Source of the DNA: an uncultured Bacteriovoracaceae bacterium | GTDB lineage: Bacteria; Bdellovibrionota; UBA2428 | Reading direction: 5' to 3' | Length of the DNA stretch: 64,000 bases | Assembly (NCBI GenBank): GCA_964636255.1 | Contig: CAZWNW010000003.1 | Location: forward strand, 225,441-289,440 | In this document: one piece after another, positions 9,143 through 51,732 of the stretch | Numbering within the stretch: position 1 is the stretch's first letter | Layout: each line of letters opens with the position of its first letter | Position numbers and translations under genes: made by a program | The notes under the pieces: model-generated | What the model was told of the DNA's origin: nothing | Databases searched by the model: none | Seen by the model: the letters and a program-made list of their open reading frames with translations, nothing else

Positions 9143-10978
9143 ATGTTTGGTCTCAGCGGCAGTAGATCCGGTGCTACATCATCAGGATGTGATTCCCCGC
9201 TCATTCCAATCGCTCTTCAGTTTACTCGACGACCCTGGGCGTTAAAGTTATTTTTTCATTCATGGTTTATTGTAGGCAAAATGCGACCCATTGGCAGGCA
9301 GCTTCCTCTCGCAAATTGGGGAGAAAGCTTTCTCATCGCTCTTTTCGTTTTGATCGCCATTGTTGTCTTTAAAGACTTTGGGATTACCTGGGATGAACAG
9401 CAGTCCTTGGATTTGGGCCAGTTTGTTATCAACTGGTACACCAGCTTCTTTACGGATCGGCGAGCACTGGAATTAGCGGATTTTCCTAATTATGGAGGAT
9501 TGGCGTCTATCGTTTCTTGGATCAGTTACAAGTTGCTCCCGGGGCCTTTGCACTATCGGACTCACGTTGCTTACCTGATTTTTGCGGTAGCAGGTCTAGT
9601 ATTTGTTGGGCGTCTAGGTCGCTTGTGCAGTGGAAAATGGGGCGGAATATTTTCGATTCTTCTCCTGGCCTCTTATCCACTATTTTTTGGAAGCGCATTC
9701 ATGAATCCTCGGGACGTGCCTTTTGCGGCTACCTTCATTGCTTCTCTGTATTACCTGTGCCGCTTGTTGATGACGCCCACTCGCGATTCAGTGAAGTCCA
9801 AGCAACGAAGAAGGGCAATCCTAGCCTTTGGTGTGAGTTGCGGTCTAGCGGTAGCCATTCGCAGCGCGGCTCTTATTTTTATTCCCGCCTTTCTTTTCGT
9901 TACGGTGATCCAACTATTGCCTCAGAATTTTGCTAACTCCAAGTTAGGCACGCTGAAGCAAAAAATTGCGACATTTTCTCGCGATTCAATGAGAATTATT
10001 GCCGAAACCGGGATAATTGTTCTGCTTGTTTACTTAACGCTTTTTCCGTTCTGGCCTAGTGCACAGGTGAATCCTCTTTTGCCAATCCAAGTTTTTCTGA
10101 ACGGCAATGTCTTTGGCGACATCCCTACCTATTTCAACGGAAGCGTGATTTCCACTTATGACTTACCGCTCTCCTACTATGCATCTTGGTTTCTATCATC
10201 CTGTTCGGACTTCCTGCTGTCTCTTCTTATCATTTCCAGCTTGGCAATTTTGTTTCTTAGTATTCGCGATCGGAAGAGTCTTAAAACTTTCAAAGTTCTT
10301 ATCGAGATTCCCACACTCGTAGCGATCGGAGTATTCTGCTTATTCGTTTTTGGCATTGTTTTGAAACGACCGCGGGCCTACGACGGCTTTCGCCATTTTA
10401 TTTTTCTTATTCCTGTTATTTGTGTGATTTCTTCCTCACTTTTTGTGGCTACACTTCGCTCTCTGAAAAATAAAACTCTTGTAGTCGGCGCGACGATGCT
10501 TGCTGGATTTAGTTTCTTATACACGGTCAAGGAAATGGTGCTGCTTCACCCCTATCAATACATCTACTCAAATAGCTACGTTGAAGGAGGAATAAAAAAT
10601 CGCCTGAAAAACAATGAGCGAGATTACTGGGGACTCGCGCTTCACGAAAGCATTCACTGGCTTGGAAAAAAAGTCGCTGAATCAAAAAGCCTCGGGAGCA
10701 TAAGGGTCTATGGGTCCGAGTTTGAATATCCAGGAAACATCGTCAAACCACTGGCTATTTATATTGATATGCTAGCGCCAAACATCAGAAGTCGAATTGA
10801 ATACGTGTCTGAGCCCAATGACGCCGACTTAGCGATAGAATTACTGAGGGGCCATTCCTTGCACAAAGAATCACCTCAAGAGAAAATAGTTCATCAGATT
10901 GAGCGCCATGGCGTTCAGCTGGGGTTGATTTTAGACACCGGCAGGAACCCAAAACTAGCTCAACAATTAAAGAACTAA
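9143..10978 (+). CDS. polytopic membrane protein, putative GT-C-fold (ArnT/PMT-like) glycosyltransferase. An alternative start is ATG 9281.
   Basis: 611 aa with more than 10 predicted TM segments. The first loop after TM1 carries the acidic motif FGITWDEQQSLD, as in GT-C enzymes. The gene is tightly coupled to the downstream GT9 gene (TAAgATG). Confidence 0.45.
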   Translation: MFGLSGSRSGATSSGCDSPLIPIALQFTRRPWALKLFFHSWFIVGKMRPIGRQLPLANWGESFLIALFVLIAIVVFKDFGITWDEQQSLDLGQFVINWYTSFFTDRRALELADFPNYGGLASIVSWISYKLLPGPLHYRTHVAYLIFAVAGLVFVGRLGRLCSGKWGGIFSILLLASYPLFFGSAFMNPRDVPFAATFIASLYYLCRLLMTPTRDSVKSKQRRRAILAFGVSCGLAVAIRSAALIFIPAFLFVTVIQLLPQNFANSKLGTLKQKIATFSRDSMRIIAETGIIVLLVYLTLFPFWPSAQVNPLLPIQVFLNGNVFGDIPTYFNGSVISTYDLPLSYYASWFLSSCSDFLLSLLIISSLAILFLSIRDRKSLKTFKVLIEIPTLVAIGVFCLFVFGIVLKRPRAYDGFRHFIFLIPVICVISSSLFVATLRSLKNKTLVVGATMLAGFSFLYTVKEMVLLHPYQYIYSNSYVEGGIKNRLKNNERDYWGLALHESIHWLGKKVAESKSLGSIRVYGSEFEYPGNIVKPLAIYIDMLAPNIRSRIEYVSEPNDADLAIELLRGHSLHKESPQEKIVHQIERHGVQLGLILDTGRNPKLAQQLKN

Positions 10979-10979
10979 G

Positions 10980-12320
10980 ATGAAATTAGACCTAAAGAAA
11001 CATCTAGATTTTTGGATAGGAGGAATTCTGGTTCTTCTACTATTCCCGTTCGTGAGAACCATAGGTCTTCTACTGAGAAGAGATCATTCACTTCAGAAGC
11101 CAAAGCACATCGCCTTCTTTAAACTATTGGGTGGCGGAAGCCTGGTTGTTGCGCTACCAACTTTCGTGGCACTCAGAAGGAAGTTTCCGCAGACTAAAAT
11201 TTCAATTGTCACCGGGCCAGCTACAAGTGCTTTTGCAAAGTCTCTCAAGATCTTTGATGAGGTTTTGATCATCGACGACAGACGCCTATTGAACTTGCTG
11301 TTTAGCAGCCTTCGAGTTCTCTTTTGGATGTTTCGCAGAGTCGATGTATCCATTGATCTAGAGCTTCATTCCAGGCTTTCAACTGTTTTTAATACGATCG
11401 CTATGGTGAAATCCCGCGTCGGGCTCATTGACCAACACTCAATTTGGCGAAAGCGGCTTTACACACATTCTGTTTTTCTGAATCCTTTTGGCGCCGTCTA
11501 TGAGACCTATGACTGTATTGCTGGTCTTTTTGGAATTCAAAGTGTGGAGACCTCACTCGCATGCCGGCACTGGAGTGAGGTTGTGGTTCAAAGTAAAAAT
11601 TCAATGGACTGGAGACCGCAGTCCTATCGAAGCGGGGACTATTTGGTATTGGGTGTCGGTTCCTCTGAACTTGCAACGGAACGTCGCCTCAGTATTCCGC
11701 AATGGGTCGCAATATTGAAATTGGTCGCTCCTCACTATTCTACCGTTGTTTTGCTAGGTAACACCGCCGACGCCTCCATTGGTCGAAAGATAGTAGCCGC
11801 ATATCAAGAGTCGGATGAACTTCGCATTCATTTTCATATGATTGCTGGTCAAACCTCTCTAGAAGAATCGATCCAAATCCTCCATTCATCAAAGTGCTTT
11901 GTCGGGGTGGACTCCGCCCTATTGCATTTGGCTAGATGGTCTGGGATCCCAAGCTTGTCATTTTGGGGACCCTCGGATCCGCGAACCCGCCTACGTTCGC
12001 TTGGTATCGTAGAGAAATCTTTCTATCAGAGGCTTTCGTGTTCTCCGTGCGTACACCTGATTGAGCCAGCACCCTGCCAGGGGAACAATATATGCATGGA
12101 GTTTGACTTAAAAAATGAACAATTGCGTCTCGATTTTCAAAACTTTCTTGTTGATACGAGAAAGAAGTTTTCTACCTCTATTTCCCAGGCTACCTCTCGA
12201 TGTATCGTTTTTGATCCCGCCGGAAAGTGTCGAATACTTGCAGTCCAATATGATGCGAAAATTCTGGAAGCGGAAGTTGACAGGACCAAAGGCGCCTCGA
12301 GAGAAATTCGCTACGAGTAA
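10980..12320 (+). CDS. glycosyltransferase family 9 (heptosyltransferase-like)
   Basis: GT9 hallmark segments are FVGVDSALLHLARWSGIPSLSFWGPSDP and KISIVTGPATSAFAKSL. Length is 446 aa. Confidence 0.7.
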   Translation: MKLDLKKHLDFWIGGILVLLLFPFVRTIGLLLRRDHSLQKPKHIAFFKLLGGGSLVVALPTFVALRRKFPQTKISIVTGPATSAFAKSLKIFDEVLIIDDRRLLNLLFSSLRVLFWMFRRVDVSIDLELHSRLSTVFNTIAMVKSRVGLIDQHSIWRKRLYTHSVFLNPFGAVYETYDCIAGLFGIQSVETSLACRHWSEVVVQSKNSMDWRPQSYRSGDYLVLGVGSSELATERRLSIPQWVAILKLVAPHYSTVVLLGNTADASIGRKIVAAYQESDELRIHFHMIAGQTSLEESIQILHSSKCFVGVDSALLHLARWSGIPSLSFWGPSDPRTRLRSLGIVEKSFYQRLSCSPCVHLIEPAPCQGNNICMEFDLKNEQLRLDFQNFLVDTRKKFSTSISQATSRCIVFDPAGKCRILAVQYDAKILEAEVDRTKGASREIRYE

Positions 12321-12345
12321 ATTCTGCTTCGCTCTCCCCGCTCTT

Positions 12346-13470
12346 TCAAATCGCTCTTAACGAAAAGACGAGGTCGATGCGGCTGGCATCTGGGGAAACG
12401 GAAAAGTCCGGACGCGAGGCTAGGCTGGAGAGAAGGCGCACATGGTGGGCGGTTTCAACGCGAAGACCTGTCGAGTGGTGCATCAAATCTTCGTGTCCAA
12501 CAAAGGGTTCCAGTAGAGCGGCCCAAGCAACGGGTGCCACCAAATGGGCAAGGGCCTTTGGTTTCAGTTCTGTTTTTCCGCGAAGACTCAAGGTGAGATA
12601 GGCCTCGTTATCCTTGGATGCGGCTTCGATTTTCATCATGGGGGGAACATCGCCCGTATTTTTGGCCATGATATCGACGAAATGGAGAAGCGATTCTTCC
12701 AGCTGTTTTTGGGGTGCGTGAATCTTGAAGCCTGCTGCAATGCCTTCATGCTGCAGCTTGATTTTGCGGGATTTGCAAAGGCCCTCGGCCCACGGGATGA
12801 GCGGGAAACTTTGCGCGGGAAGGCTCGCCGCACTTTTTTCGTCAGAAAGCAGCGAGCGCACGTCTTCTTCCATGACCGAGAGACGCAGGGAAATTTGTTT
12901 TAAAAATTTTTCCCGAATCGCGAGGTTTTCAGGATCATTTTCGTTGAATTGTTTAAGAGCCTCTAGAATTTGCGGCATCGTGCGGAATTCGTGCAGCAAA
13001 ATTTGCAGCAAGCGTTCGCGGGACCAATCCTTTGCGCGCAGGTGATTCAAAGCTCTCTCTAAATGTAGGCGCGATTCGTCCAGGCTACGGCGCATTTGCG
13101 TTCGTTCGCTTGCCTGTTTAACGGTACGGAGCAAATCGTCCGGCTCCCAAGGCTTGGAAATATAGCGCCAGATCTGACCACTGTTGACGGCCTCAATGAC
13201 CGCTTCCAGGTCCGCGAATCCAGTCAAAAGTATACGCGTTGGAACCGCGTCGATTTTTAAGGCCTCTTCAAAAAACTTAGAGCCTGTCATTTCCGGCATT
13301 CGCTGGTCCGAGACTAAGCAATCAAAGCGCTCCCCGTTTTGGAGAAGCTTCAAGGCTTCCTTGGGGGATTCCAATCCGACAAGTTCAAAATCTTTTCGCA
13401 AAAGGCGTATGAGCGCCCGAATATTATCCGGCTCGTCATCAACTATGAGAACGCGGGACGGAGAGGCCAA
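12346..13470 (-). CDS. response regulator with an N-terminal REC domain and a degenerate histidine-kinase-like C-terminal domain
   Basis: REC has LIVDDEP, the acceptor D in CLVSDQRMPEMTG, and SKPW. The C-terminus has the HisKA-like LLHEFRTMP but no G1/G2 ATP-binding boxes. The TTG start directly abuts the Nudix stop. Confidence 0.65.
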   Translation of the reverse strand: MASPSRVLIVDDEPDNIRALIRLLRKDFELVGLESPKEALKLLQNGERFDCLVSDQRMPEMTGSKFFEEALKIDAVPTRILLTGFADLEAVIEAVNSGQIWRYISKPWEPDDLLRTVKQASERTQMRRSLDESRLHLERALNHLRAKDWSRERLLQILLHEFRTMPQILEALKQFNENDPENLAIREKFLKQISLRLSVMEEDVRSLLSDEKSAASLPAQSFPLIPWAEGLCKSRKIKLQHEGIAAGFKIHAPQKQLEESLLHFVDIMAKNTGDVPPMMKIEAASKDNEAYLTLSLRGKTELKPKALAHLVAPVAWAALLEPFVGHEDLMHHSTGLRVETAHHVRLLSSLASRPDFSVSPDASRIDLVFSLRAI

Positions 13471-13881
13471 TTAGTATCGCTCCAAAAAGAAATCGTTCAG
13501 GATATCTTTTTGCTTCCAAGCAATCGGATCCGGCAAATTCATTTGGTGAAAGAGGCCATTTTCAATTACGCCGGCTGTAGTTTTAGGATTTCCGCGCGCG
13601 CGGGCTAGAAAAACAACACGCACTTTGGCGCCGCCTTCGCTTTCCTCGGGATAGGAGTAGGTGTGGAACTGCCGGACGATTTCCGCGTCCAAACCCGTAC
13701 TCTCCAAGACCCGCCGCAGGGCGGCTTCTTCCAAATATTCATTGTCGCCAATGCGGCCCCCTGGCAAACGCCAGCTGTCTTGGGGTTCGTCGGTTTTCTG
13801 CAAAAGGATCAGGCCCGAGCCCATATCCAGCAGTACATCTACATGCGTTTCTCGTTTGAGGTCCTTTTGACCTGAATCCAT
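13471..13881 (-). CDS. NUDIX-family hydrolase with a divergent Nudix box
   Basis: The Nudix-box-like segment is GGRIGDNEYLEEAALRRVLESTGL. The canonical REx2EE appears as RRVLES. Length is 136 aa. Confidence 0.6.
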   Translation of the reverse strand: MDSGQKDLKRETHVDVLLDMGSGLILLQKTDEPQDSWRLPGGRIGDNEYLEEAALRRVLESTGLDAEIVRQFHTYSYPEESEGGAKVRVVFLARARGNPKTTAGVIENGLFHQMNLPDPIAWKQKDILNDFFLERY

Positions 13882-13906
13882 ACCGTGCTAGTCTCCCTGC
13901 AAACTT

Positions 13907-15016
13907 ATGAGAATCGGTGTTCCCAAAGAAGTTAAAAATACTGAAAACAGAGTCGCTATTGTTTTGGCTGGCGTCAAGTCCCTCGTTCAAGCCGGTCACG
14001 AAGTTCGTGTCCAAGAGGGCGCCGGCCTAGGTTCCGGCATCACAGACGCGCAGTATCGAAGTGCGGGGGCAAAAATAGTGCCCTCCGCCAAAGATGCTTG
14101 GGACGCAGATCTTGTGATGAAAGTTAAGGAACCGCAGCCTGAAGAATTTGGATTCATGCGGCCGGGACTTCTTCTTTACACCTATCTCCACTTGGCCAAT
14201 GAATTAGAGCTGGGCCAAGAGCTATTGAAGCGCAAAGTCCGCTCGATTGCATATGAAACCATTCAACTCCCTAACGGATCTCTCCCTCTGCTTCGACCGA
14301 TGTCCGAGGTCGCCGGGCGCCTGGCGCCTCAGGTAGGTGCAAATCTATTGGAAAAACGCAATGGAGGAAGCGGAGTTCTCTTGGGCGGAGTTCCGGGCGT
14401 AGATCGCGGCGTTGTCACCATCATTGGTGGTGGAGTCAGCGGCATTAACGCTGCCAAAGTCGCCATCGGCCTAGGCGCCGAAGTGACCGTGATCGAGAAA
14501 AATCCTGATCGTCTGGCTTATTTGGACGATATTTTCAACACTTCCATCAACACCCGTATGAGTGATCCCGTTAGCATCGAGGAGTCCGTTGCGGTTTCTG
14601 ACCTGGTGGTGGGCGCGGTCCTTATTCCGGGTGCAAAAGCACCAAAACTGGTGACCCGCGAGATGATCCAAAAGATGCGCCCGGGTTCAGTAGTCGTTGA
14701 CGTCGCTATTGACCAAGGGGGTTGTTTTGAAACTTCTAAACCCACGACACATAGTCAGTCCTCCTATATCGAAGAGGGCGTTCTTCACTATTGCGTCACC
14801 AACATGCCGGGCATTGTGGCACGTACTTCGACCTTTGCTCTCACGAACCACACGCTGACATTTGCCTTGATGCTGGCGGCCGATCCGATTGGGGCCATTC
14901 GCAACAACCCGGCTTTAGCATTGGGTGTGAATACCTGGGATGGACATTGTGTTTACGCTCCCGTCGCACGAGATTTAGACTTCGAATACGTTCCCCTAGA
15001 GAAGACTCTGAGTTAG
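13907..15016 (+). CDS. ald: alanine dehydrogenase
   Basis: The N-terminus [23 protein letters not shown] is classic for Ald. The NAD-binding fold is [28 protein letters not shown]. Length is 369 aa. Confidence 0.9.
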
Positions 15017-15040
15017 TCTCTTTTCTGGGAATCAACTTCG

Positions 15041-15778
15041 ATGACAGCGCCGCGTTTATTGATCTGTGTTCCAACTTATAACGAAAAGGACAATGTCGAG
15101 GCACTTGCACGCGCGATTTTCGAGCGAGCCTCTCCGCAGACCGAAATCCTTTTTGTAGATGATGGAAGCCCTGATGGCACAGGAGAAGTTTTGAAACGCA
15201 TGACCATGGAAGAGACGCGGATCCATGTGATTCACCGCTCGGGAAAGCAGGGCTTGGCGACCGCTTACCTCCAAGCCTTCCACTGGGGTTTGGCACGTGG
15301 TTATGACTGGCTCATGGAAATGGATGCTGATTTCTCGCATGATCCTGCCTACGTTTCTGAAATTGAAGCGATGATCGCGCGCGACGCAGGCGATGTGCTT
15401 TGTGGAAGTCGTTATGTGCCAGGTGGTGGTGTTTCCAACTGGTCGAAAATGCGCCTTCTTCTTTCGCGTTCGGGATCGCTTTATTCAAGACTTGTGCTGG
15501 GTCGCCCGATGGCAGATTGGACCGGAGGCTTCAATACGTGGAATCGGCGCGTGCTAGAGAACCTGCAACTGCAGACGATTAAAAGTCGCGGATACGCATT
15601 TCAAATTGAAATGAAATATCGAGCGCTCATTAAAGGCTACCGGGTGATTGAATTTCCGATCATTTTTAAAGAACGCCGTGCAGGCCAATCCAAGATGAGC
15701 GGATCGATCATCAAAGAGGCCGTGATCGGAGTGCTTCGACTCAGGACGGCTCACAGTTGTGGCCGGCTATTTGAATAA
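15041..15778 (+). CDS. GT2 polyprenol-phosphate mannose/glucose synthase (Dpm1-like)
   Basis: Motifs are LICVPTYNEKDNV, ILFVDDGSPDGT and DADFSHDP. The 245 aa size is typical of dolichol/polyprenol-P-sugar synthases. Confidence 0.75.
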   Translation: MTAPRLLICVPTYNEKDNVEALARAIFERASPQTEILFVDDGSPDGTGEVLKRMTMEETRIHVIHRSGKQGLATAYLQAFHWGLARGYDWLMEMDADFSHDPAYVSEIEAMIARDAGDVLCGSRYVPGGGVSNWSKMRLLLSRSGSLYSRLVLGRPMADWTGGFNTWNRRVLENLQLQTIKSRGYAFQIEMKYRALIKGYRVIEFPIIFKERRAGQSKMSGSIIKEAVIGVLRLRTAHSCGRLFE

Positions 15779-15823
15779 TCTCGGCGACTTGCGCCTGCTG
15801 GGAGCAGCTGGCAAACTAAGGGG

Positions 15824-17587
15824 GTGAGACCCCTACTTTACACGCTCAGTGCTCTTTTTATTCTGGAACGTCTCTTCCTACAGGATTTCCTGATCAAGAT
15901 CGGAGGTCAGGCCGGTCCCTATATCTTCGAAGGTCTTTTGATTTTGAGCTTTCTGGCTCTGGCGCGAGAAGAACTTCACTTCCGTTTTCGATTCACTTGG
16001 CAGTGGGCCTTTCTTGGAAGTCTCAACATCATCTTCGGAGCCTCCATATTTTTTCTCTGCGAGAATATGGGCCTAGTTGTTCCCTTTGATTTTTCCTCCA
16101 AAAGCTTTGCGTTCATGTTGATTGTTGTCGGCCCGCTGATGGAAGAACTTCTCTTTCGCGGGCTTCTCTGGCAGTCCCTGCGACCCATTTTTCATTCCGC
16201 CTTTTGGACTTTGCTGATCACTTCCGTTCTCTTTTCATTCGATCATTTCGGCGCCTTTTTCCGCGTTCCCGCGGATTTTCAAAGTTTTATTCTTTTTCAA
16301 ACCTTCTATACCCTCCTCTTTGGACTGCTATGGGGTTATTCGCGCCTTAAGACTAATAGCGTATTGGCGGCGGTTATCTTGCACGCTTTGTTTAACCTCG
16401 GCTTTTATTCAGCCGCAAAAGTTTACCCGCGATCCGCCGGAGCGGAGCAATCGATGCTGGAGGCCGGGGATCTTTCACACGCCGATGCGCCAGCCCAACT
16501 TCCCGCCGATCTTGCTCAGTGGGAGGAATTCAATAACGCGATTGATAGTTTTCGCCAGGGAATGGGCGGAGTGGAAACAGCCGAGCGTCCGCCCAACAGC
16601 GTGCCTCGTGTGTTGATCGCGGATATGGCGATTGCTAAAGTTAATTTATTTAAAAGAAATCCTGGCGTGAAGATATTCATCCCGGCCGAGGGCTCAGGCG
16701 GCGGGGAATTAGCGACGAACTGCGCCACGAATCTTAGGCGCATCGAAGAGTTTTTTTCGGCCCTCCTGCAAGATCAGGCGCCGCCTTTTGAGCTGGATCA
16801 AAAGGCTGTCGAGCAGTTGGAGCAAACATTGTGGGCAACCCACGGCTATCACGTATTGGGACTTGTGCAGAAAAATCTGCGAAAGAGTGAAATTATTTTT
16901 CTGCCCATGAATCCCCCCCCGAGCGTTAACACCGGGATCAGTGATCATAAATCGTATATCCAAAAAAACATTCTCCCAGACATGGTTCGACTCTTCCGAG
17001 CGGTGAAAGAGTATAGCCCCGACCTTGTTTTAGTGGCATCAAGTGACACCGTGGAAGAAAATGAACGCGACCTAAAGGTGGGGGGCTATACCCCTTCAGA
17101 TGCTCGTCGTGGAGCTGAAGAAATTCTAGGTGCTTGGACCGGTGCCTGGACCACGCTCATTTCATCTTTCCCAAAAATTTGGTTTGTTGTACCCAGTGGA
17201 AATGGTGGGATTGATGGTCTGGGCGATCGTTTAGAGTCGCGCATGATTCGTAGTGGTCCCATCCCCGCAGTACTTCCTTTTGGCAACATGATTCGCGTGG
17301 CCTCATTCGAGGAACGAAAAGATAGCTGTCTCTCGCGTTTTTCTAATTTTGGAGTCGAGGCCAGCGATGTAGCCGCACGTGGAAGAGAAGTTGAGTCTTG
17401 GGCGCCCTGTGCAAAAAGACCTTCGGTTCGCCTTTCCGGAACTTCGCAGGCGGCCGCAAAAGTGACCGCCGCGTTGGCCGAGGCTTTGGAAAACGGCATC
17501 ACAGTCGAGGAAACGATGAAGACTTTTCTCCGAGAAAGCTGTCTCGAGGATCGAGTCAGCACAGCGTCCCGAATTCCAGAACGCTAA
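15824..17587 (+). CDS. fusion protein: N-terminal CPBP (CAAX/Abi-type) intramembrane metalloprotease domain plus a C-terminal S8 subtilisin-like serine protease domain
   Basis: CPBP motifs are EELLFRGLLW, FSFDHFG and HALFNLG. S8-like catalytic motifs are VLIADMAI (Asp), WATHGYHVLG (His), VVPSGNGG (Asn) and LSGTSQAAAKVTAALA (Ser). The start is GTG. Confidence 0.6.
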   Translation: MRPLLYTLSALFILERLFLQDFLIKIGGQAGPYIFEGLLILSFLALAREELHFRFRFTWQWAFLGSLNIIFGASIFFLCENMGLVVPFDFSSKSFAFMLIVVGPLMEELLFRGLLWQSLRPIFHSAFWTLLITSVLFSFDHFGAFFRVPADFQSFILFQTFYTLLFGLLWGYSRLKTNSVLAAVILHALFNLGFYSAAKVYPRSAGAEQSMLEAGDLSHADAPAQLPADLAQWEEFNNAIDSFRQGMGGVETAERPPNSVPRVLIADMAIAKVNLFKRNPGVKIFIPAEGSGGGELATNCATNLRRIEEFFSALLQDQAPPFELDQKAVEQLEQTLWATHGYHVLGLVQKNLRKSEIIFLPMNPPPSVNTGISDHKSYIQKNILPDMVRLFRAVKEYSPDLVLVASSDTVEENERDLKVGGYTPSDARRGAEEILGAWTGAWTTLISSFPKIWFVVPSGNGGIDGLGDRLESRMIRSGPIPAVLPFGNMIRVASFEERKDSCLSRFSNFGVEASDVAARGREVESWAPCAKRPSVRLSGTSQAAAKVTAALAEALENGITVEETMKTFLRESCLEDRVSTASRIPER

Positions 17588-17590
17588 GTA

Positions 17591-17640
17591 AGCTATCCTC
17601 ATTTCACCATTTAGAAATGAGGATAGTCGATGAGTTTTTC
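17591..17640. terminator. bidirectional intrinsic terminator between convergent genes
   Basis: 13-bp perfect inverted repeat CTATCCTCATTTC / GAAATGAGGATAG followed by TTTTT. It sits between the 3' ends of 15824-17587 (+) and 17649-18224 (-). Confidence 0.55.
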
Positions 17641-17648
17641 TGCGTTCC

Positions 17649-18224
17649 TTACTTGCAGTTTAAAATTTGCTTCAGGATTGTGTCTTGGCGGGCAGTCTGA
17701 GCATCCAGTTCTGCTTTTTTTGCTTTAACTTTTGCGATTGCATTGCTGACACTGCCGCTGGTGATTTTCCACGCGATCGCACCGCTTCCCGCGACGCCGG
17801 CCCCGACAGCAACTCCGAGTGCTTCAAACAAGAGAAAACCCGAGTCTTTCAGAATCGGGTTAGCGGCTTTTGCGGTGTTGTAAAAAAGTCCGCCACTGAC
17901 GGCGGCAAGTAGCACGCCTGCTGTTGTTACTGATATTGAAATAGTTCTTTTAGTTTTGGCCTTGCCCAGAGCAGTTTCTAGTTCAGCCCATGCAGCGCGC
18001 GTGATTTCTGCGTCGCTTTTGGCTTTTTCAAAACTGGCCTTAAGCGCGTTTTTCTCTTCCGCCGTTAAATTGCAGTCGACGCCTTCGGCTCCTGCCACAC
18101 CCGCTGTAGCGGATGGGGTATTTGATTCGCTATGTTGCGCCAGACTCCCAAGGGGGCTGAGCAAGGAAAAGCTGATCGTGAGGGCCATCATTTTTGCACT
18201 GAGTGTTTGCATGTCCTTTTTCAT
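17649..18224 (-). CDS. secreted hypothetical protein with a Gly/Ala-rich (glycine-zipper-like) hydrophobic segment
   Basis: The signal peptide is MKKDMQTLSAKMMALTISFSLLSPLGSLAQ. Internal segments are VTTAGVLLAAVSGGLF and ALGVAVGAGVAGSGAIAW. Confidence 0.55.
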   Translation of the reverse strand: MKKDMQTLSAKMMALTISFSLLSPLGSLAQHSESNTPSATAGVAGAEGVDCNLTAEEKNALKASFEKAKSDAEITRAAWAELETALGKAKTKRTISISVTTAGVLLAAVSGGLFYNTAKAANPILKDSGFLLFEALGVAVGAGVAGSGAIAWKITSGSVSNAIAKVKAKKAELDAQTARQDTILKQILNCK

Positions 18225-18248
18225 TATCTTCCTCTTTTCTTTCAGAAT

Positions 18249-19724
18249 TTAGTTCTGGCCTGTTAGATCCAGAAAACGTTTGATGTTTTCGATTTCCTGG
18301 GCAGTGGCCTTTCTGCCTTGGGTTGTTTCGAGTTCGAAGACAACCTGATCGAGTCTGTCGCCGATCTGGAAAGTTTTCGGACGATTTTCGAGATCAATCA
18401 TTTCGTTTAGAAGTTTATCCGATTGTTGGCCTTCAACGCTGGCCGCCATTTTTTTATCGCCTGCTCTTTGTGCTCCGATCATGACTACGGGAGTGGCAGC
18501 AGTGGCGCCACCGGCAATGGCAAGGCGCGTCTTCCATGTGAGTGAACCCAGGCGCGTAAACACCCCCCACATTGCAACACTGGAGATCGCGCCGACAAAC
18601 ATCGAAGCTCCATCCTCTAAGAACTTTTGCCCGACGGCGCAGAGATTTGTTTTGTCTGAATTAGCGTTAGCTTTTATGGCGGACCGGGTCTTAATTCCAG
18701 CAGATACGACAGTTGTTCCGGTCCCAATGGCAATTGCTGTGGCCGAGGCGCCGGCAACAATGGGGTACGCAACAGGAGAGAGAATCGCGGTATAGATATT
18801 CTTCCGAAGTTTTTTGATTCCAGCCACTAAATTTGCGTTAGAAACATCAAAGGCGTCACGAATGAGTGCGTGCGCTTGCTGAGAATCTTCTTTGCTGAGG
18901 CCATAATTTCGTTGCAGATCCATGAAGGAATCGATCATGCGGTCGCGGGCCTTTTCTGCTGCGGCAAATTTTCCATTGCTATCGGCTTTTCCACCCCATT
19001 GTTCCTTCCATCCAGCAATAAATAGATTGCCGGCCGTTGATTGACTGCGGGATGTGCGAACAAAATTTTCAATATCGGATCCAAAGGCATCAAGCTTTTC
19101 ACGGAGGAGTTTTTGGTGTTCTTCTAAACTAATCGCGCGTTCTCTGTGAGGGATTTTGACAAGATTCAAAAAGTAGAATGGTTTCCTGCCATTTGATCGG
19201 ATGAAGTCCTCCAGGCTATCTGCGCTTTCAGGAAAAAGATCGATGAAAGCACGTTTTTGATCTGGGTCTCTTAGCAGGCGATCGAAAGAATATGAATCAA
19301 AGTTAGCTCCTGATGAACTTAGTTTCAGGCCATTTTTTTTCAGGAGCTCAAGGCTGGAGTTATTCTCAAGATTCAGTTTCTGAAGCGCTTGATTTCGCTT
19401 CTCGGCCAGGACTGTTTGCCAGGCGAAGCTGGCTAAAAATCCTTGGTGATTCTTGTCACGGCTGTATTGGGCCTCGGAAAGTCCTCGAAAAACCATATCT
19501 GCGATCTTTCGATCACTTAGGCCCGAACGAGTTGCCCGTCGGATGCGATCCACGAAAATCAAATCAGTGGGACTGAGCTCGGCCTCGCAGTTTTTCGCTT
19601 GATGCAGCATCCCCTGGGAATTCTCAAGGTTTGGGCTGTGTTGTGCCCAGAGAAGGCTCGGAATCAGTCCCAGAGATGCGATTTTGAGGCCACTTCGAAT
19701 TCGTTGCAATAAAAGTAGTATCAC
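18249..19724 (-). CDS. hypothetical protein with a C-terminal Gly/Ala-rich hydrophobic domain resembling that of 17649-18224
   Basis: 491 aa. The C-terminal segments are ILSPVAYPIVAGASATAIAIGTGTTVVSAGI and LAIAGGATAATPVVMIGA. It lies 24 nt upstream of the smaller similar gene. Confidence 0.55.
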   Translation of the reverse strand: MILLLLQRIRSGLKIASLGLIPSLLWAQHSPNLENSQGMLHQAKNCEAELSPTDLIFVDRIRRATRSGLSDRKIADMVFRGLSEAQYSRDKNHQGFLASFAWQTVLAEKRNQALQKLNLENNSSLELLKKNGLKLSSSGANFDSYSFDRLLRDPDQKRAFIDLFPESADSLEDFIRSNGRKPFYFLNLVKIPHRERAISLEEHQKLLREKLDAFGSDIENFVRTSRSQSTAGNLFIAGWKEQWGGKADSNGKFAAAEKARDRMIDSFMDLQRNYGLSKEDSQQAHALIRDAFDVSNANLVAGIKKLRKNIYTAILSPVAYPIVAGASATAIAIGTGTTVVSAGIKTRSAIKANANSDKTNLCAVGQKFLEDGASMFVGAISSVAMWGVFTRLGSLTWKTRLAIAGGATAATPVVMIGAQRAGDKKMAASVEGQQSDKLLNEMIDLENRPKTFQIGDRLDQVVFELETTQGRKATAQEIENIKRFLDLTGQN

Positions 19725-19887
19725 TTAATTTTTAAGATTCCGACAGCGATAGGAATCTACAAGGGCAGGGAATTATTGACGGTTTGGACGGCTAGAAAGC
19801 CTCCATTTTTCCGGTATTTATGTCAGACCTTTCAACATTATGAAATTCCTCAATCATTTGGGTTTATAGATTTTCTGATCTTTTCAT

Positions 19888-22749
19888 TTGTGTAACATTA
19901 CGATGCTCTATGGGATGGTCGGAGCAGCAGTTTATATGAACTTAAATCGCCTCTCATCAAATTTGCTTGTGGCAGGCTTGATGTTGCTGGCTGGAAAAGT
20001 TGCACTGAGCCTTGCCATAGCTCCTGGAAATGTCGCACTTTTTTGGCCTCCTGCAGGTATTGCGGTGGCAGCGCTGATCGTCGGCGGTTTTTTCAATGCT
20101 CCAGGAGTTTTTCTGGGGGCGGCAGGTGTGAACTTTTGGCACCACTGGCAGTTGGGCACTCCGCTGGACGTGACTTTGATTTTGTGCGTTTTGATCGGAA
20201 TCGGCTGCACATTGCAGGCAGCCCTTGCGCGTCTCTACATCGTGCGCTTCTTGGGCGGTTCGATTGCCTTGAAAAGCGTGCGAGAATTAGCGATCTTTTT
20301 TTTCCTTTGTGGTCCCGGAGCCTGCTGGGTTGCTTCGCTGATAGGCGTGTATGCGCTACTTGTTACAGGCTTGATTGCCCCTGAGCTTTTTGCTGTTAAC
20401 TGGTGGAGCTGGTTCATCGGCGATATGCTGGGCGTAGTCATCTTCGCCCCGCTCCTTTTGGCCTTTATCGGAAAGCCTAGGATTCTCTGGCGCACGCGAA
20501 TTCGAGTGGTGGCCTTTCCGCTAATGCTCGCCCTTACCTTATGTATTTCAATCTCCGTGCAGTTTCGCTCGAACAAGCAAGAGAGCCAAAATCGCGAACT
20601 AGAATCTCGCACGACACTTTTAGTAGATGATCTTGAAACACTCATAGAGTCTTATGCGCGGCTTCTGCATGGAGTGAAGGCTTTTTATCTTTCGAATGAA
20701 GAGGCGGTCGATAAAATCGAATTCGATACATTCGTAGGGCGCTACTTCCATCAATACGAGGGAATTCACTCGATCCAGTGGTTGCCCCATATCAATGCAA
20801 GCGAGCGCAATCGATTCGAATCTTCGGTTCGCGCCAGTCTGGGCGTTCCGGATTTTAGAATCACAGAATTAGACGAACGCCGCCAAAACTTCCTTCCGGC
20901 AGCGGAGAGAGATTTTTACCTTCCAGTCCTCTATCTCTTCCCTGATTCCAATAACCTAAGAATTCTTGGCTATGATGTGGGTTCGCATCCTCAGAGAGCT
21001 AAAGTTTTACAGGCGATGGATGGGCGCGATGAAGTCATAGCTTCGGGACGTTTTTTATTGTTGCGTATGGACGAGCCCAGCCGCGAAATGGGTTTTCGTT
21101 TTCTCTTACCTCTTTATCGATCCGACTTAAGGCCGCGGCAGGCACTGCAGGCTTGGCCGGGCGCCCGTAAAAATGAAAATCCAGTTTTAGGATATTTTTC
21201 TGTAGTGGTCCGCGTGAATGAAATGATTGATCACCTCACGATACCGCACCGTGCGGGGGGCGATCTTAATCTGCAAGTGGTCGATGGCGACGGAACCGTT
21301 ATTTATAGCGCTGGAGCTGAAAGCCCATTTGGTCCGGTACTCGAGCAGCCAATTTTGAGCAATCGCGTATTTAATTTGAATTGGCGCGTGTTGATGTGGC
21401 CTGCGGCAGTTAGTCCCGCAGTCTTGCCGTTACTGTCCTCTAATTCAGATTATTTGATCGGCGTATTCCTTACTGCAATTTTGTCGATCATTTTGTTGGT
21501 CTTGGCCGGTCGGAACGAAGATCTCCGCATAGAAATCGAAAAACGCTCTGAAATTGAGCAGCACCTTCGCGAAGCGCGCGATTCTGCGGAGTCAGCAAAT
21601 CGAGCCAAGAGCCTGTTTCTTGCAAACATGAATCACGAATTGCGTACTCCTCTGGGCGCTGTGCTCGGTTTTTCGAAGCTCTTGGCAGATCCCGGTGTCG
21701 GCAGTGAAGAGCGATTGTCGTATGTCTCTGCGATCCAACGGAACGGTGAGCTTCTGTCGCGCCTGATCGACGACGTCATTGATCTTTCAAAAGTAGAGGC
21801 TGGACATCTTTCGATGGAAAGCAAAAAGTTTTCTGTTCAGACTTTGGTCCGCGATGTCGTCCGGATTTTTGAAGTTCAGCTCACCCAGAAAAACATTCAA
21901 ATCAGTTTCGATATCCATCCAGACGCTCCGGATTTGATTTCGGCTGACGAAAGCCGCATTCGTCAAGTGCTACTGAATCTTGTGGGCAATGCTCTGAAAT
22001 TTACTGAGCAAGGCGAAATCCGACTGCGATATTCCGCAACGGTTGGGAATGATCCGATGAGTTGGAAGCTCCGCTTTGAAGTCGAGGACACTGGGTCAGG
22101 GATACCTGAGCATGAACAACAACGAATCTTTGAACCTTTCGTGCAGGGAGAATCCAGTACGGCAAAGCTTAAGGGCGGGGCTGGACTAGGTTTGGCGCTT
22201 TCTCGAAGACTTGCGAAATTGATGGGCGGAGATCTTTTTCTTAAGAATAGTGTGCCTGGTAAAGGAAGCTGCTTTGCTGTCGAATTGAGCGTGCAGAAAG
22301 ACTCCACGCGCGCACAGAACGTCGCGCGCAAGTCAGCTTACTCGGATGAACTCCGTGGTCGAAAAATTTTAGTCGTCGAAGATTCCGAGGATACGCAGGA
22401 GCTTACGAAGATTCTGCTCACTCGTATGGGGGCGAAGGTGACCTTCGCGTCCAATGGGCAGGAGGCAATCGATCGAGTACCCTTGGATCAACCTGAGGCG
22501 ATCTTGATGGATTTACAAATGCCTGTGAAAGATGGCTATGAGGCTACTCGAGAATTGAGATCTCTCGGATTTCAGGGTCCAATCATTGCGCTGACCGCTT
22601 ATGCTTTGCGCGAAGTTCGTGACCGTTGTTTTGCCATGGGTATGGATGACTTTCTTACTAAGCCGGTCGATTCAAAGCAGCTTTTCAACTGCCTAGTGCG
22701 GCATCTTGGACTTAGTTCGCGTCCGGATGTCGAACAAATGCTTCATTGA
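19888..22749 (+). CDS. hybrid sensor histidine kinase: MASE1 membrane domain - CHASE domain - HisKA - HATPase - REC. The start is uncertain: TTG 19888, or ATG at 19903, 19915 or 19936.
   Basis: The MASE1-like N-terminus is LSLAIAPGNVALFWPPAGIAVAAL. It has a CHASE-like periplasmic block. The H-box is NMNHELRTPL, the N-box is LLNLVGNALKFT and the G-box is DTGSGIPE. The receiver is ILVVEDSEDTQE...MDLQMP. Confidence 0.8.
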   Translation: MCNITMLYGMVGAAVYMNLNRLSSNLLVAGLMLLAGKVALSLAIAPGNVALFWPPAGIAVAALIVGGFFNAPGVFLGAAGVNFWHHWQLGTPLDVTLILCVLIGIGCTLQAALARLYIVRFLGGSIALKSVRELAIFFFLCGPGACWVASLIGVYALLVTGLIAPELFAVNWWSWFIGDMLGVVIFAPLLLAFIGKPRILWRTRIRVVAFPLMLALTLCISISVQFRSNKQESQNRELESRTTLLVDDLETLIESYARLLHGVKAFYLSNEEAVDKIEFDTFVGRYFHQYEGIHSIQWLPHINASERNRFESSVRASLGVPDFRITELDERRQNFLPAAERDFYLPVLYLFPDSNNLRILGYDVGSHPQRAKVLQAMDGRDEVIASGRFLLLRMDEPSREMGFRFLLPLYRSDLRPRQALQAWPGARKNENPVLGYFSVVVRVNEMIDHLTIPHRAGGDLNLQVVDGDGTVIYSAGAESPFGPVLEQPILSNRVFNLNWRVLMWPAAVSPAVLPLLSSNSDYLIGVFLTAILSIILLVLAGRNEDLRIEIEKRSEIEQHLREARDSAESANRAKSLFLANMNHELRTPLGAVLGFSKLLADPGVGSEERLSYVSAIQRNGELLSRLIDDVIDLSKVEAGHLSMESKKFSVQTLVRDVVRIFEVQLTQKNIQISFDIHPDAPDLISADESRIRQVLLNLVGNALKFTEQGEIRLRYSATVGNDPMSWKLRFEVEDTGSGIPEHEQQRIFEPFVQGESSTAKLKGGAGLGLALSRRLAKLMGGDLFLKNSVPGKGSCFAVELSVQKDSTRAQNVARKSAYSDELRGRKILVVEDSEDTQELTKILLTRMGAKVTFASNGQEAIDRVPLDQPEAILMDLQMPVKDGYEATRELRSLGFQGPIIALTAYALREVRDRCFAMGMDDFLTKPVDSKQLFNCLVRHLGLSSRPDVEQMLH

Positions 22750-22838
22750 TCAAATTTGACGCTGCGATGTAGGTTCTCGTCTACAATTCCATAGAGGAGT
22801 GAAGCAATTCAGGGCAGAATGGGCCCCGGGAAAAGTCC

Positions 22839-51630: not shown

Positions 51631-51732
51631 CACGATTTCAGGGCCATGAAGAGTTAAAAGCTCTTAAAGACGATCTCTAATAATTCGGCATCGTGTCAAG
51701 TTTTTGCTTTTCTTGTTTTTAGGCTCTCGACT

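What the first reader, a model, noticed from the sequence alone, without database searches (positions are those of the whole stretch)
15824..17587. Unusual fusion of a CPBP (CAAX/Abi) intramembrane metalloprotease with an apparently intact S8 subtilase domain
The N-terminal roughly 200 aa carry all three CPBP motifs: EExxxR, FxxxH and HxxxN. The C-terminal roughly 350 aa carry subtilisin-like Asp, His, Asn and Ser catalytic motifs in the canonical order. The fusion order is the point of interest: it joins two different protease chemistries in one polypeptide. CPBP proteins are often linked to bacteriocin/RiPP immunity or processing, and S8 enzymes to leader-peptide removal. A bifunctional peptide-maturation or self-immunity role is an inference. 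A Dpm1-like GT2 gene is adjacent.
Basis: partly seen in the sequence, partly recalled or inferred. Interest (0 to 1): 0.6.

Follow-up and report, generated by a model that had tools for sequence, protein, structure and literature searches.

The report
Membrane CPBP protease fused to subtilase
One gene encodes a membrane-embedded CPBP protease joined to a divergent but apparently intact subtilisin-type protease that sits in the periplasm; this rare, unstudied two-protease design recurs in uncultured Bdellovibrionota and shows no link to bacteriocin or RiPP genes.

Summary

The fusion is not an artefact. Eleven of 24 family representatives carry the same CPBP+S8 design, with CPBP motifs invariant. 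The other 13 are mostly exported stand-alone S8-like proteins with signal peptides or lipoboxes.

The positive-inside rule, the exported stand-alone relatives and two covarying cysteine pairs place the S8 domain in the periplasm. It has no propeptide.

The family is small (23 clusters at 50% identity). It is known only from MAGs and metagenomes; the few named records are mostly Bdellovibrionota. Sources annotate the fused members only as CPBP.

The RiPP/bacteriocin reading is not supported: no precursor, modification or transporter genes appear in nine loci, and neighbourhoods are not conserved.

My preferred mechanism is inferred, at about 35%: two-site processing of an exported or membrane-anchored envelope protein. 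I class this as a new variant of known kinds, of moderate interest.

The parts
15824..17587 (+). Complete gene, 587 aa plus stop: CPBP-subtilase fusion protein
   Evidence: Single ORF. It is identical to database protein P0001, whose precomputed Pfam domains are PF02517 and PF00082. The start aligns with the start of its relative in L001.
15824..16423 (+). CPBP/Rce1-like domain, aa 1-200, seven predicted TM helices (aa ~3-22, 30-46, 59-79, 94-113, 125-143, 153-173, 179-197), N-terminus cytoplasmic
16142..16159 (+). CPBP motif 1, E107-E108-L-L-F-R112 (EExxxR)
   Evidence: Read from the sequence. EE and R are invariant in all 11 fused family members.
16232..16246 (+). CPBP motif 2, F137-S-F-D-H141 (FxxxH)
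   Evidence: Read from the sequence. F and H are invariant in all 11 fused members.
16382..16396 (+). CPBP motif 3, H187-A-L-F-N191 (HxxxN)
   Evidence: Read from the sequence. H and N are invariant in all 11 fused members.
16424..16606 (+). Variable acidic linker, aa 201-261
   Evidence: Low pLDDT, below 50 for aa 210-226. Length varies from roughly 20 to 70 aa among fused members. Only 24% identity to the closest relative in this stretch.
16607..17584 (+). Divergent subtilase (S8) domain, aa 262-587; periplasmic, no propeptide
16622..16624 (+). Catalytic Asp267 (VLIADMAI, end of strand beta-1)
   Evidence: Aligned to D32 of subtilisin BPN'. Invariant in 24 of 24 members.
16841..16843 (+). 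Catalytic His340 (THGYHVLG)
   Evidence: Aligned to H64 of subtilisin BPN'. Invariant in 24 of 24.
17201..17203 (+). Oxyanion-hole Asn460 (PSGNGG)
   Evidence: Aligned to N155 of subtilisin BPN'. Invariant in 24 of 24.
17444..17446 (+). Nucleophile Ser541 (SGTSQA)
   Evidence: Aligned to S221 of subtilisin BPN'. Present in 22 of 24 members; P0008 has Ala and P0009 has Pro at this position.
16721..16723 (+). Cys300, inferred disulfide partner of Cys529 (nt 17408-17410)
   Evidence: Both are invariant in 24 of 24 members. The disulfide itself is inferred, not measured.
17327..17329 (+). Cys502, inferred disulfide partner of Cys573 (nt 17540-17542)
   Evidence: The two cysteines are both present in 14 members and both absent in 10, never one alone.
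17592..17627 (+). 14-bp perfect hairpin just after the stop codon, between the convergent genes; likely terminator
   Evidence: MFE -21.6 kcal/mol, z -5.2, and 0 of 200 shuffles fold as well. The consensus terminator scan did not pick it up.
15041..15778 (+). Upstream GT2 gene (polyprenyl-phosphate glycosyltransferase-like), 45 nt before the fusion gene. Context only, not shown to be functionally linked.
   Evidence: PF00535, E 1.1e-26. Full-length sub-threshold matches to AglJ, dolichyl-phosphate hexose transferase, ArnC and PpgS. In relative L001 the GT2 stop overlaps the fusion gene's start, GTGA.

Best explanation
The gene encodes an inner-membrane protein with two protease domains, belonging to a small family known only from MAGs and metagenomes; the few named records are mostly Bdellovibrionota.

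Shown, confidence about 0.9:
- A 7-TM CPBP/Rce1-type glutamic intramembrane endopeptidase domain, N-terminus cytoplasmic, with an intact active-site set (E107/E108, R112, H141, H187, N191).
- A variable linker joining it to a divergent subtilase domain (D267, H340, N460, S541).
- A subtilase domain that lies in the periplasm, lacks any propeptide and probably carries two disulfides (C300-C529, C502-C573).

Inferred mechanism, about 0.35: the two domains act on the same exported or membrane-anchored envelope protein. The membrane-tethered S8 domain cuts the periplasmic, juxtamembrane part. The CPBP domain cuts within or next to the membrane-embedded segment. This would be a two-site processing, release or sorting reaction. 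It is analogous to site-1/site-2 proteolysis, or to the removal of a C-terminal membrane anchor by CPBP-type myxosortases.

It is a chromosomal envelope gene, not part of a peptide-antibiotic cluster.
For: Architecture:
- One ORF.
- Pfam CPBP and S8 hits, both above their gathering cut-offs.
- AF2 model at pLDDT 87.
- hhalign 99.9% with D/H/N/S mapped onto subtilisin BPN'.

Conservation of the fusion:
- 11 of 24 family representatives carry both domains.
- CPBP motifs are invariant in all 11.
- D, H and N are invariant in 24 of 24 and Ser is present in 22 of 24.
- Fused members fall mostly in one clade at about 30% identity, which suggests long-term retention.
- dN/dS is about 0.13-0.16 for the CPBP part against the nearest relative.

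Topology:
- K+R count of 79 inside against 16 outside over 11 proteins gives N-in, C-out.
- Of the 11 stand-alone homologues, five carry lipobox cysteines and most others a hydrophobic leader; the S8 strand beta-1 begins shortly after the leader.
- Two cysteine pairs are invariant or perfectly co-occurring.

Juxtamembrane action: in several members the linker is only about 20 residues, which holds the S8 domain against the membrane face.

CPBP as a cutter of membrane-anchored exported proteins: the best NCBIfam similarities, all sub-threshold, include the myxosortase-type sorting proteases MrtJ, Mrt_core, MrtS, MrtP and MrtC. Myxosortase is described as a CPBP intramembrane protease that sorts MYXO-CTERM proteins (PMC11980579, title and abstract seen).
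Against: - No substrate is identified.
- No neighbouring gene family recurs across nine loci, so context gives no support for any specific pathway.
- Two fused members (P0008, P0009) have lost the S8 nucleophile Ser but keep the CPBP motifs. S8 catalysis is therefore not always needed.
- In the closest relative (L001/L002) a CAA-to-TAA nonsense codon truncates the CPBP before motif 3, while the S8 part stays intact. The S8 part may therefore work without CPBP catalysis.
- By homology with Rce1, which shares the N-in orientation, the CPBP cavity might open towards the cytoplasmic leaflet, the opposite side from the S8 domain. I could not inspect model coordinates to settle this.
- Inter-domain packing in the model is only moderately confident (pTM 0.66).
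Confidence: 0.5

Rival explanations
1. Two independent functions share one polypeptide. The CPBP part mainly serves as a membrane anchor, or has its own unrelated substrate. The S8 domain is simply a membrane-tethered periplasmic protease, for housekeeping or for a predatory lifestyle, equivalent to its lipoprotein-anchored stand-alone relatives.
For: - Stand-alone S8-like members are anchored by a lipobox or signal anchor instead of CPBP, and are not next to CPBP genes.
- One member (P0011) carries a different N-terminal domain instead of CPBP.
- In the nearest relative the CPBP is cut by a nonsense codon while the S8 part is preserved. A TTG/ATG start inside the last TM helix could still yield an anchored S8 protein.
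Against: - All CPBP catalytic motifs are invariant in the 11 fused members over about 30% overall identity.
- The CPBP part has low dN/dS, which is not expected for a mere anchor.
- Fusion of two proteases that persists across a deep clade suggests coupled function.
Confidence: 0.25
2. The S8-like domain works mainly as a non-catalytic recognition or regulatory module for the CPBP protease, or as a binding protein. This would resemble the pseudoprotease CspC or PCSK9, both subtilase folds.
For: - P0008 (GTAQ) and P0009 (GTPQ) lack the nucleophile but keep Asp, His, Asn, the invariant Gln and all CPBP motifs.
Against: - The window protein and 22 of 24 representatives keep the full Asp/His/Asn/Ser set.
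- Invariance of the oxyanion Asn and both His residues is most simply explained by catalysis.
Confidence: 0.12
3. One reading: a bifunctional RiPP/bacteriocin enzyme, with S8 as leader peptidase and CPBP as Abi-type self-immunity or processing protein.
For: - Structural neighbours include the lanthipeptide leader peptidases CylA, EpiP and NisP and the cyanobactin enzymes PatA and PatG.
- From general knowledge, CPBP/Abi proteins are known bacteriocin immunity factors.
Against: - No precursor-sized ORF fits in the 45-nt and 61-nt flanking gaps.
- No modification enzymes, ABC exporters or bacteriocin genes lie within about 7 kb either side of the gene or in eight other loci.
- Neighbourhoods are unrelated chromosomal genes and are not conserved.
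- Similarity to LanP and PatG is no higher than to generic subtilases.
Confidence: 0.06
4. Artefact: two adjacent genes merged by a sequencing or assembly frameshift, or a chance ORF.
For: In the nearest relative, gene callers report two genes, of 165 aa and 400 aa.
Against: - That split comes from a single in-frame TAA replacing a conserved Gln codon; both parts are in the same frame.
- Ten further independent representatives from different metagenomes have the uninterrupted fusion.
- The window ORF is continuous.
Confidence: 0.01

Closest known systems
Subtilases, peptidase family S8 (subtilisin BPN', thermitase, PfSUB1, SubA; processing enzymes EpiP, NisP, CylA, PatA, PatG)
   Same: - Same order and position of Asp, His, oxyanion Asn and Ser.
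- Conserved HG.HV.G, GN.G, S.FSN.G and GTS.A blocks.
   Different: - Very divergent: 13-22% identity in structural alignments. Pfam sees only the C-terminal half.
- An insertion of about 45 aa between Asp and His, carrying an invariant Cys.
- An insertion of about 27 aa replacing the SLGG substrate-binding segment (SSD(S/T)xEEN...).
- GTSQ in place of GTSM.
- No I9-type propeptide.
- N-terminal fusion to a polytopic membrane protease.
CPBP / Rce1-like type II CAAX endopeptidases (Rce1; bacterial Abi proteins, MroQ, SpdC/LyrA, YdiL)
   Same: - The three signature motifs are intact.
- PF02517 is well above its cut-off.
   Different: - Seven TM helices, ending outside the cell.
- A roughly 330-aa periplasmic serine-protease domain follows. 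I found no description of such a fusion in the searchable literature.
- Not next to bacteriocin, agr or cell-wall genes.
Myxosortases and related CPBP sorting proteases (MrtC, MrtP, MrtJ, MrtS)
   Same: Among the best NCBIfam similarities for the CPBP part. The concept is shared: a CPBP enzyme that removes a membrane-anchoring segment from exported proteins (PMC11980579; bioRxiv 10.1101/2023.06.07.544157).
   Different: - All scores are far below the family cut-offs, for example 31.7 against 75 for MrtJ and 28.8 against 100 for Mrt_core.
- No cognate C-terminal sorting signal has been identified.
- The myxosortase preprint does not mention a subtilase fusion.
Membrane-tethered subtilases acting beside membrane machines: eukaryotic site-1 protease (S1P/MBTPS1) paired with the intramembrane site-2 protease; mycosins (MycP) of type VII secretion
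   Different: - In those systems the S8 enzyme is a separate protein with a single C-terminal TM helix.
- The intramembrane partner of S1P is a metalloprotease (S2P), not a CPBP.
- Any functional analogy here is inference only.

Membership tests
Peptidase family S8 (subtilases) | Subtilase alpha/beta fold | tested here: met
   [not shown]
Peptidase family S8 (subtilases) | Catalytic residues in the order Asp-His-Ser, with the oxyanion Asn, at homologous positions | tested here: met
   hhalign against an S8 profile: D267~D32, H340~H64, N460~N155, S541~S221; probability 99.9%. The residues are invariant or near-invariant in the family. The 3-D geometry of the triad could not be measured because no coordinates were available.
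Peptidase family S8 (subtilases) | Pfam PF00082 score above the gathering threshold | tested here: met
   30.8 bits against 21.8, but the match covers only profile positions 145-271. 21 of 24 family members match at E <= 0.01.
Peptidase family S8 (subtilases) | Serine endopeptidase activity | not testable with these tools
   Needs an enzyme assay comparing wild type with S541A.
CPBP / Rce1-like intramembrane endopeptidases (PF02517) | Motifs EExxxR, FxxxH and HxxxN on consecutive TM helices | tested here: met
   E107-E108...R112, F137...H141 and H187...N191. Invariant in the 11 fused members.
CPBP / Rce1-like intramembrane endopeptidases (PF02517) | Profile score above threshold, and an Rce1-like helical fold | tested here: met
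   [not shown]
Myxosortase-type CPBP sorting proteases (MrtC/P/J/S) | NCBIfam equivalog or domain score above the cut-off | tested here: not met
   MrtJ 31.7 against 75; Mrt_core 28.8 against 100; MrtS 23 against 130; MrtP 21.9 against 250; MrtC 20.1 against 195.
Myxosortase-type CPBP sorting proteases (MrtC/P/J/S) | Co-occurrence with a cognate C-terminal sorting signal (invariant Cys, TM helix, basic tail) in the same genome | not tested
   Only 64 kb of the genome is available, and no proteome-wide motif search was possible.
Lanthipeptide/RiPP leader peptidases (LanP type) and Abi bacteriocin-immunity proteins | Encoded in a cluster with precursor peptide, modification enzymes and/or a dedicated transporter | tested here: not met
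   No such genes lie in window 9143-24662 or in eight other loci. There are no small ORFs in the flanking gaps and no recurrent neighbours.
Secreted subtilisins with an I9/IMC propeptide | N-terminal inhibitor/chaperone propeptide before the catalytic domain | tested here: not met
   No Pfam I9 hit. In stand-alone homologues, strand beta-1 starts shortly after the signal peptide or lipobox. In the fused forms only a variable linker of 20-70 aa lies between the last TM helix and beta-1.

The most novel reading that the evidence does not exclude
The protein is a self-contained two-step membrane proteolysis machine. The periplasmic subtilase domain performs a 'site-1' juxtamembrane cut. The fused CPBP domain performs the 'site-2' intramembrane cut on the same exported or anchored substrate. 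That would define a previously unrecognised protein-release or sorting system, or a signalling system, so far seen mainly in Bdellovibrionota MAGs. The catalytically dead S8 variants would act as pure substrate receptors.
Probability: 0.25. Interest if true: 0.7.

Novelty: new variant of a known kind. Interest (0 to 1): 0.48.

Why it matters
CPBP proteases are widespread in bacteria, but few have known substrates. A conserved covalent partnership with a periplasmic serine protease gives a concrete, testable handle on what one CPBP lineage does: it points to processing of exported or membrane-anchored proteins.

The work also defines a divergent, propeptide-less, disulfide-bonded subtilase subfamily that current annotation misses in the fused proteins. 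These are named only 'CPBP family protease'.

The family also contains natural nucleophile-less variants and differently anchored forms (lipoprotein, TM anchor, an unknown 'domain X'). These are useful for dissecting function.

If the two domains act in sequence, this would be a rare single-chain analogue of site-1/site-2 proteolysis. If they do not, it is a curiosity of domain architecture in an uncultured lineage.

Tried and rejected
- Single-sequence AlphaFold2 of the full protein gave an unusable model (pLDDT 39). It was replaced by a 24-sequence alignment run.
- The word-indexed protein search found only the protein itself and one relative. With the family profile it found only four members. 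The exhaustive representative search was needed to find the family.
The single-protein scan found nothing. The two-sequence alignment found only the known relative, a Bdellovibrionota MAG.
- The AFDB fold library was unavailable.
- Model coordinates are not exposed to scripts. Triad geometry, disulfide distances and the orientation of the S8 cleft relative to the CPBP cavity could therefore not be measured.
- Neighbourhood analysis of nine loci by all-versus-all BLAST found no recurrent partner gene. Operon-based function inference was therefore dropped, including any GT2 link beyond the closest relative.
- The consensus promoter and terminator scan was no better than shuffles.
- Literature searches found nothing describing the fusion. 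The term sets were CPBP + subtilisin; Bdellovibrio + CPBP; PF02517 + PF00082; and CAAX protease + subtilisin-like + Bdellovibrio.
- I considered stop-codon reassignment to explain the in-frame TAA in the relative and rejected it: 11 of 19 genes in that locus end in TAA.
- I considered whether the second S8 gene in the window is the same as the S8 gene next to family member P0014. It is not: no significant similarity.
Full report
1. THE OBSERVATION

Window 15824-17587 (+) is a single 587-codon ORF with a GTG start. The sequence has no internal stop or frameshift.

The CPBP half is clear. Pfam places an Rce1-like/CPBP domain at aa 95-192 (E 2.1e-18, 66.8 bits against a cut-off of 22.4). The three CPBP motifs are directly visible: EELLFR (E107-R112), FSFDH (F137-H141) and HALFN (H187-N191).

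The S8 half is not settled by Pfam alone. Pfam places a Peptidase_S8 match only at aa 452-571 (30.8 bits against 21.8; profile positions 145-271 of 288). A search of solved structures with the protein and its one close relative gave only marginal S8 hits (EpiP, E 0.1). The claim of an 'apparently intact S8 domain' therefore needed independent testing.

2. THE FAMILY

The word-indexed search of 5.8 billion proteins found only the protein itself and one 61%-identical, 400-aa relative, P0002.

An exhaustive HMMER search of 1.84 billion cluster representatives with the C-terminal domain found 23 representatives with E <= 1e-18. After that there is a sharp drop to generic subtilases, which match only the Asn-Ser half.

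Of the 24 sequences (the window protein plus 23), 21 hit Pfam S8 and 11 hit Pfam Rce1-like. The architectures are:
- 11 are CPBP+S8 fusions of 504-587 aa.
- 11 are stand-alone proteins of 302-346 aa.
- P0011 (600 aa) has a different N-terminal domain.
- P0002 is the split relative discussed in section 5.

An HMM of the CPBP part detects only these fusions among all 151 retrieved proteins. None of the 127 generic S8 hits has a CPBP domain.

All members come from MAGs or metagenomes. The few source names are:
- 'CPBP family glutamic-type intramembrane protease [Bdellovibrionota bacterium]' (HVJ64891.1);
- 'CPBP family intramembrane metalloprotease' (MBP7845692.1, NCN41176.1);
- 'membrane protease YdiL';
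- for one short stand-alone member, 'S8 family serine peptidase'.
In the fused proteins the S8 half is thus unannotated.

The only relative in the GTDB species-representative collection is a Bdellovibrionota MAG. It is syntenic with the window over more than ten genes. The window is therefore very probably from a Bdellovibrionota genome; this is an inference.

3. IS THE C-TERMINAL HALF A COMPLETE, INTACT SUBTILASE?

Conservation. In the 24-sequence alignment the invariant residues include D267, H340, H343, G459-N460-G461, C300, C529 and Q542. S541 is present in 22 of 24.

Profile comparison. The family profile against subtilisin BPN' alone aligns H340/N460/S541 with H64/N155/S221. Against an S8 profile seeded on BPN' the alignment is full-length: probability 99.9%, E 9.7e-34, 252 columns. 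It adds D267~D32 at the end of strand beta-1. A generic S8 HMM scores the window protein 98.4 bits.

Conclusion. The catalytic set is intact and canonical in order. The sequence divergence that blinds Pfam comes from two insertions:
- about 45 aa between Asp and His, carrying the invariant C300;
- about 27 aa replacing the SLGG segment (SSDTVEEN...).

4. TOPOLOGY AND MATURATION

The model has seven TM helices.

Across the 11 fused proteins, the N-terminus and alternate loops L2-3, L4-5 and L6-7 hold 79 Lys+Arg. Loops L1-2, L3-4 and L5-6 hold 16. This gives an N-in, C-out topology.

Three further observations put the S8 domain in the periplasm:
- Five of the eleven stand-alone homologues have a lipobox-like Cys, and most of the others a signal peptide or signal anchor. 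The strand bearing the catalytic Asp starts shortly after it.
- C300 and C529 are invariant in all 24 members.
- C502 and C573 are both present in 14 members and both absent in 10, never singly. This pattern is expected for two disulfides.

There is no propeptide: no I9 hit, and no room for one in the stand-alone forms. In several fused members the linker from TM7 to beta-1 is only about 20 residues. The subtilase must then sit directly on the outer face of the CPBP domain.

5. THE SPLIT IN THE NEAREST RELATIVE

In L001/L002, gene callers report a 165-aa CPBP gene and a 400-aa gene. L001 and L002 are two assemblies of what appears to be the same MAG population and are identical in sequence.

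Both parts are in one frame. They are separated by a single TAA that replaces the CAA codon of the family-invariant Gln159. TAA is the commonest ordinary stop in that locus, so this is a nonsense mutation and not recoding.

All CPBP motifs on both sides of the stop are intact. dN/dS for the CPBP part is about 0.13-0.16, with dS saturated. The truncation is therefore recent or polymorphic.

This shows the fusion is ancestral. It also hints that the S8 part may survive loss of CPBP catalysis.

6. CONTEXT

In the window the order is alanine dehydrogenase, then GT2, then the fusion gene, all on the + strand. A strong hairpin follows (17592-17627, z -5.2), and then convergent genes for two uncharacterised exported or membrane proteins.

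The GT2 resembles polyprenyl-phosphate hexose transferases. In the close relative its stop overlaps the fusion gene's start.

The other family loci lie in unrelated surroundings:
- one is near rpoD-dnaG;
- one is among AhpC, ferredoxin and EamA genes;
- one is next to tRNA synthetases;
- one is among flagellin genes.

An all-versus-all comparison of ORFs from nine loci finds no recurrent neighbour family apart from window-L001 synteny. None of the loci has RiPP or bacteriocin precursor, modification or export genes. The 45-nt and 61-nt gaps flanking the window gene leave no room for a small ORF.

7. MECHANISM

Shown: two catalytic centres, both apparently intact, are conserved together across a deep clade. 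One lies within the inner membrane and one is tethered on its periplasmic face.

Inferred, about 35%: they cooperate on exported or membrane-anchored envelope proteins. The subtilase would cut the periplasmic juxtamembrane region and the CPBP would cut the membrane-proximal segment.
- Precedents for CPBP enzymes removing anchoring segments of exported proteins are the myxosortases (PMC11980579; bioRxiv 10.1101/2023.06.07.544157). These give among the best NCBIfam similarities, though all are sub-threshold.

Rivals:
- independent functions, with CPBP acting mainly as an anchor (about 25%);
- an S8 domain that works mainly as a non-catalytic receptor (about 12%; supported by the Ser-less P0008 and P0009);
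- the RiPP/bacteriocin reading (about 6%);
- artefact (about 1%).

8. COMPARISON AND NOVELTY

Each half passes the membership tests for its family, S8 and CPBP. The protein fails the tests for myxosortases (scores far below cut-offs), for LanP/Abi-type cluster membership, and for propeptide-bearing secreted subtilisins.

I found no description of a CPBP-subtilase fusion in the searchable literature.

It is best classed as a new variant of known kinds. It combines a rare, conserved domain architecture with a divergent S8 subfamily, in uncultured Bdellovibrionota.

Interest is moderate. The architecture is real and suggestive, but function is unproven and there is no substrate or conserved partner.

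Noticed in passing
P0011 (family member, 600 aa) and L003 9618-10496 (-): P0011 carries an unknown N-terminal 'domain X' of about 290 aa in place of the CPBP domain. A separate 292-aa secreted homologue of X (29% identity over 230 aa, E about 1e-35) is encoded convergently, abutting the stop codon of the CPBP-S8 gene P0003. This is a Rosetta-stone-type link between X and the S8-like domain. X has no Pfam family and no copy in the window or in L001.
   Followed up: partly
L003 4801-6018 (+) and 7160-7969 (+): Uncharacterised secreted proteins upstream of the CPBP-S8 gene P0003 carry HExxH-like motifs (HEMGH, HEAWH). P0011's domain X has HERIH, but its L003 homologue has HARVIAH instead. They could be metalloprotease-like neighbours or substrates; none has a Pfam hit.
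   Followed up: no
L001 9914-9916 (= L002): The closest relative, a Bdellovibrionota MAG (LH-05nov19-15), has a CAA-to-TAA nonsense codon at the family-invariant Gln of the CPBP domain. It splits the fusion into 165-aa and 400-aa gene calls. The codon is identical in two assemblies.
   Followed up: yes
P0008 and P0009 (fused family members): The subtilase nucleophile Ser is replaced by Ala (GTAQ) or Pro (GTPQ), while Asp, His, Asn and all CPBP motifs are kept. These look like natural pseudo-protease variants.
   Followed up: partly
window 50290-51633 (-): A second S8 gene of 447 aa (PF00082, 86 bits). It also scores 71.5 bits with the HMM of the divergent family and shares motifs such as W..LF..HPETLF and ALPASL. 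It may be an intermediate between mainstream subtilases and this family. It is not similar to the S8 gene next to P0014 in L007.
   Followed up: partly
window 48892-50256 (-): A full-length glycoside hydrolase family 14 (beta-amylase) gene, PF01373 E 5e-146, lies directly beside the second S8 gene. It is an unexpected enzyme for a presumed Bdellovibrionota genome.
   Followed up: no
window 39885-41591 (-): A single 568-aa ORF combines NuoB-like (Oxidored_q6) and NuoD-like (Complex1_49kDa) domains. This appears to be a fused complex I subunit gene.
   Followed up: no
window 9143-12320 (+): A PMT_2-type GT-C glycosyltransferase and a GT9 heptosyltransferase-like gene sit between the secretin/T2SS genes and the response regulator. 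They are absent at the syntenic position in L001, so they look like a lineage-specific insertion of envelope glycosylation genes a few kb upstream of the GT2/CPBP-S8 pair.
   Followed up: partly
window 17649-18224 (-) and 18249-19724 (-): Two convergent, uncharacterised genes encode proteins with N-terminal signal peptides and Gly/Ala-rich hydrophobic C-terminal regions. They have no Pfam or NCBIfam hits and no counterpart in L001.
   Followed up: no
L007 4480-5826 (-): A 448-aa protein with a weak Peptidase_S8 hit is encoded divergently, right next to the CPBP-S8 gene P0014.
   Followed up: partly
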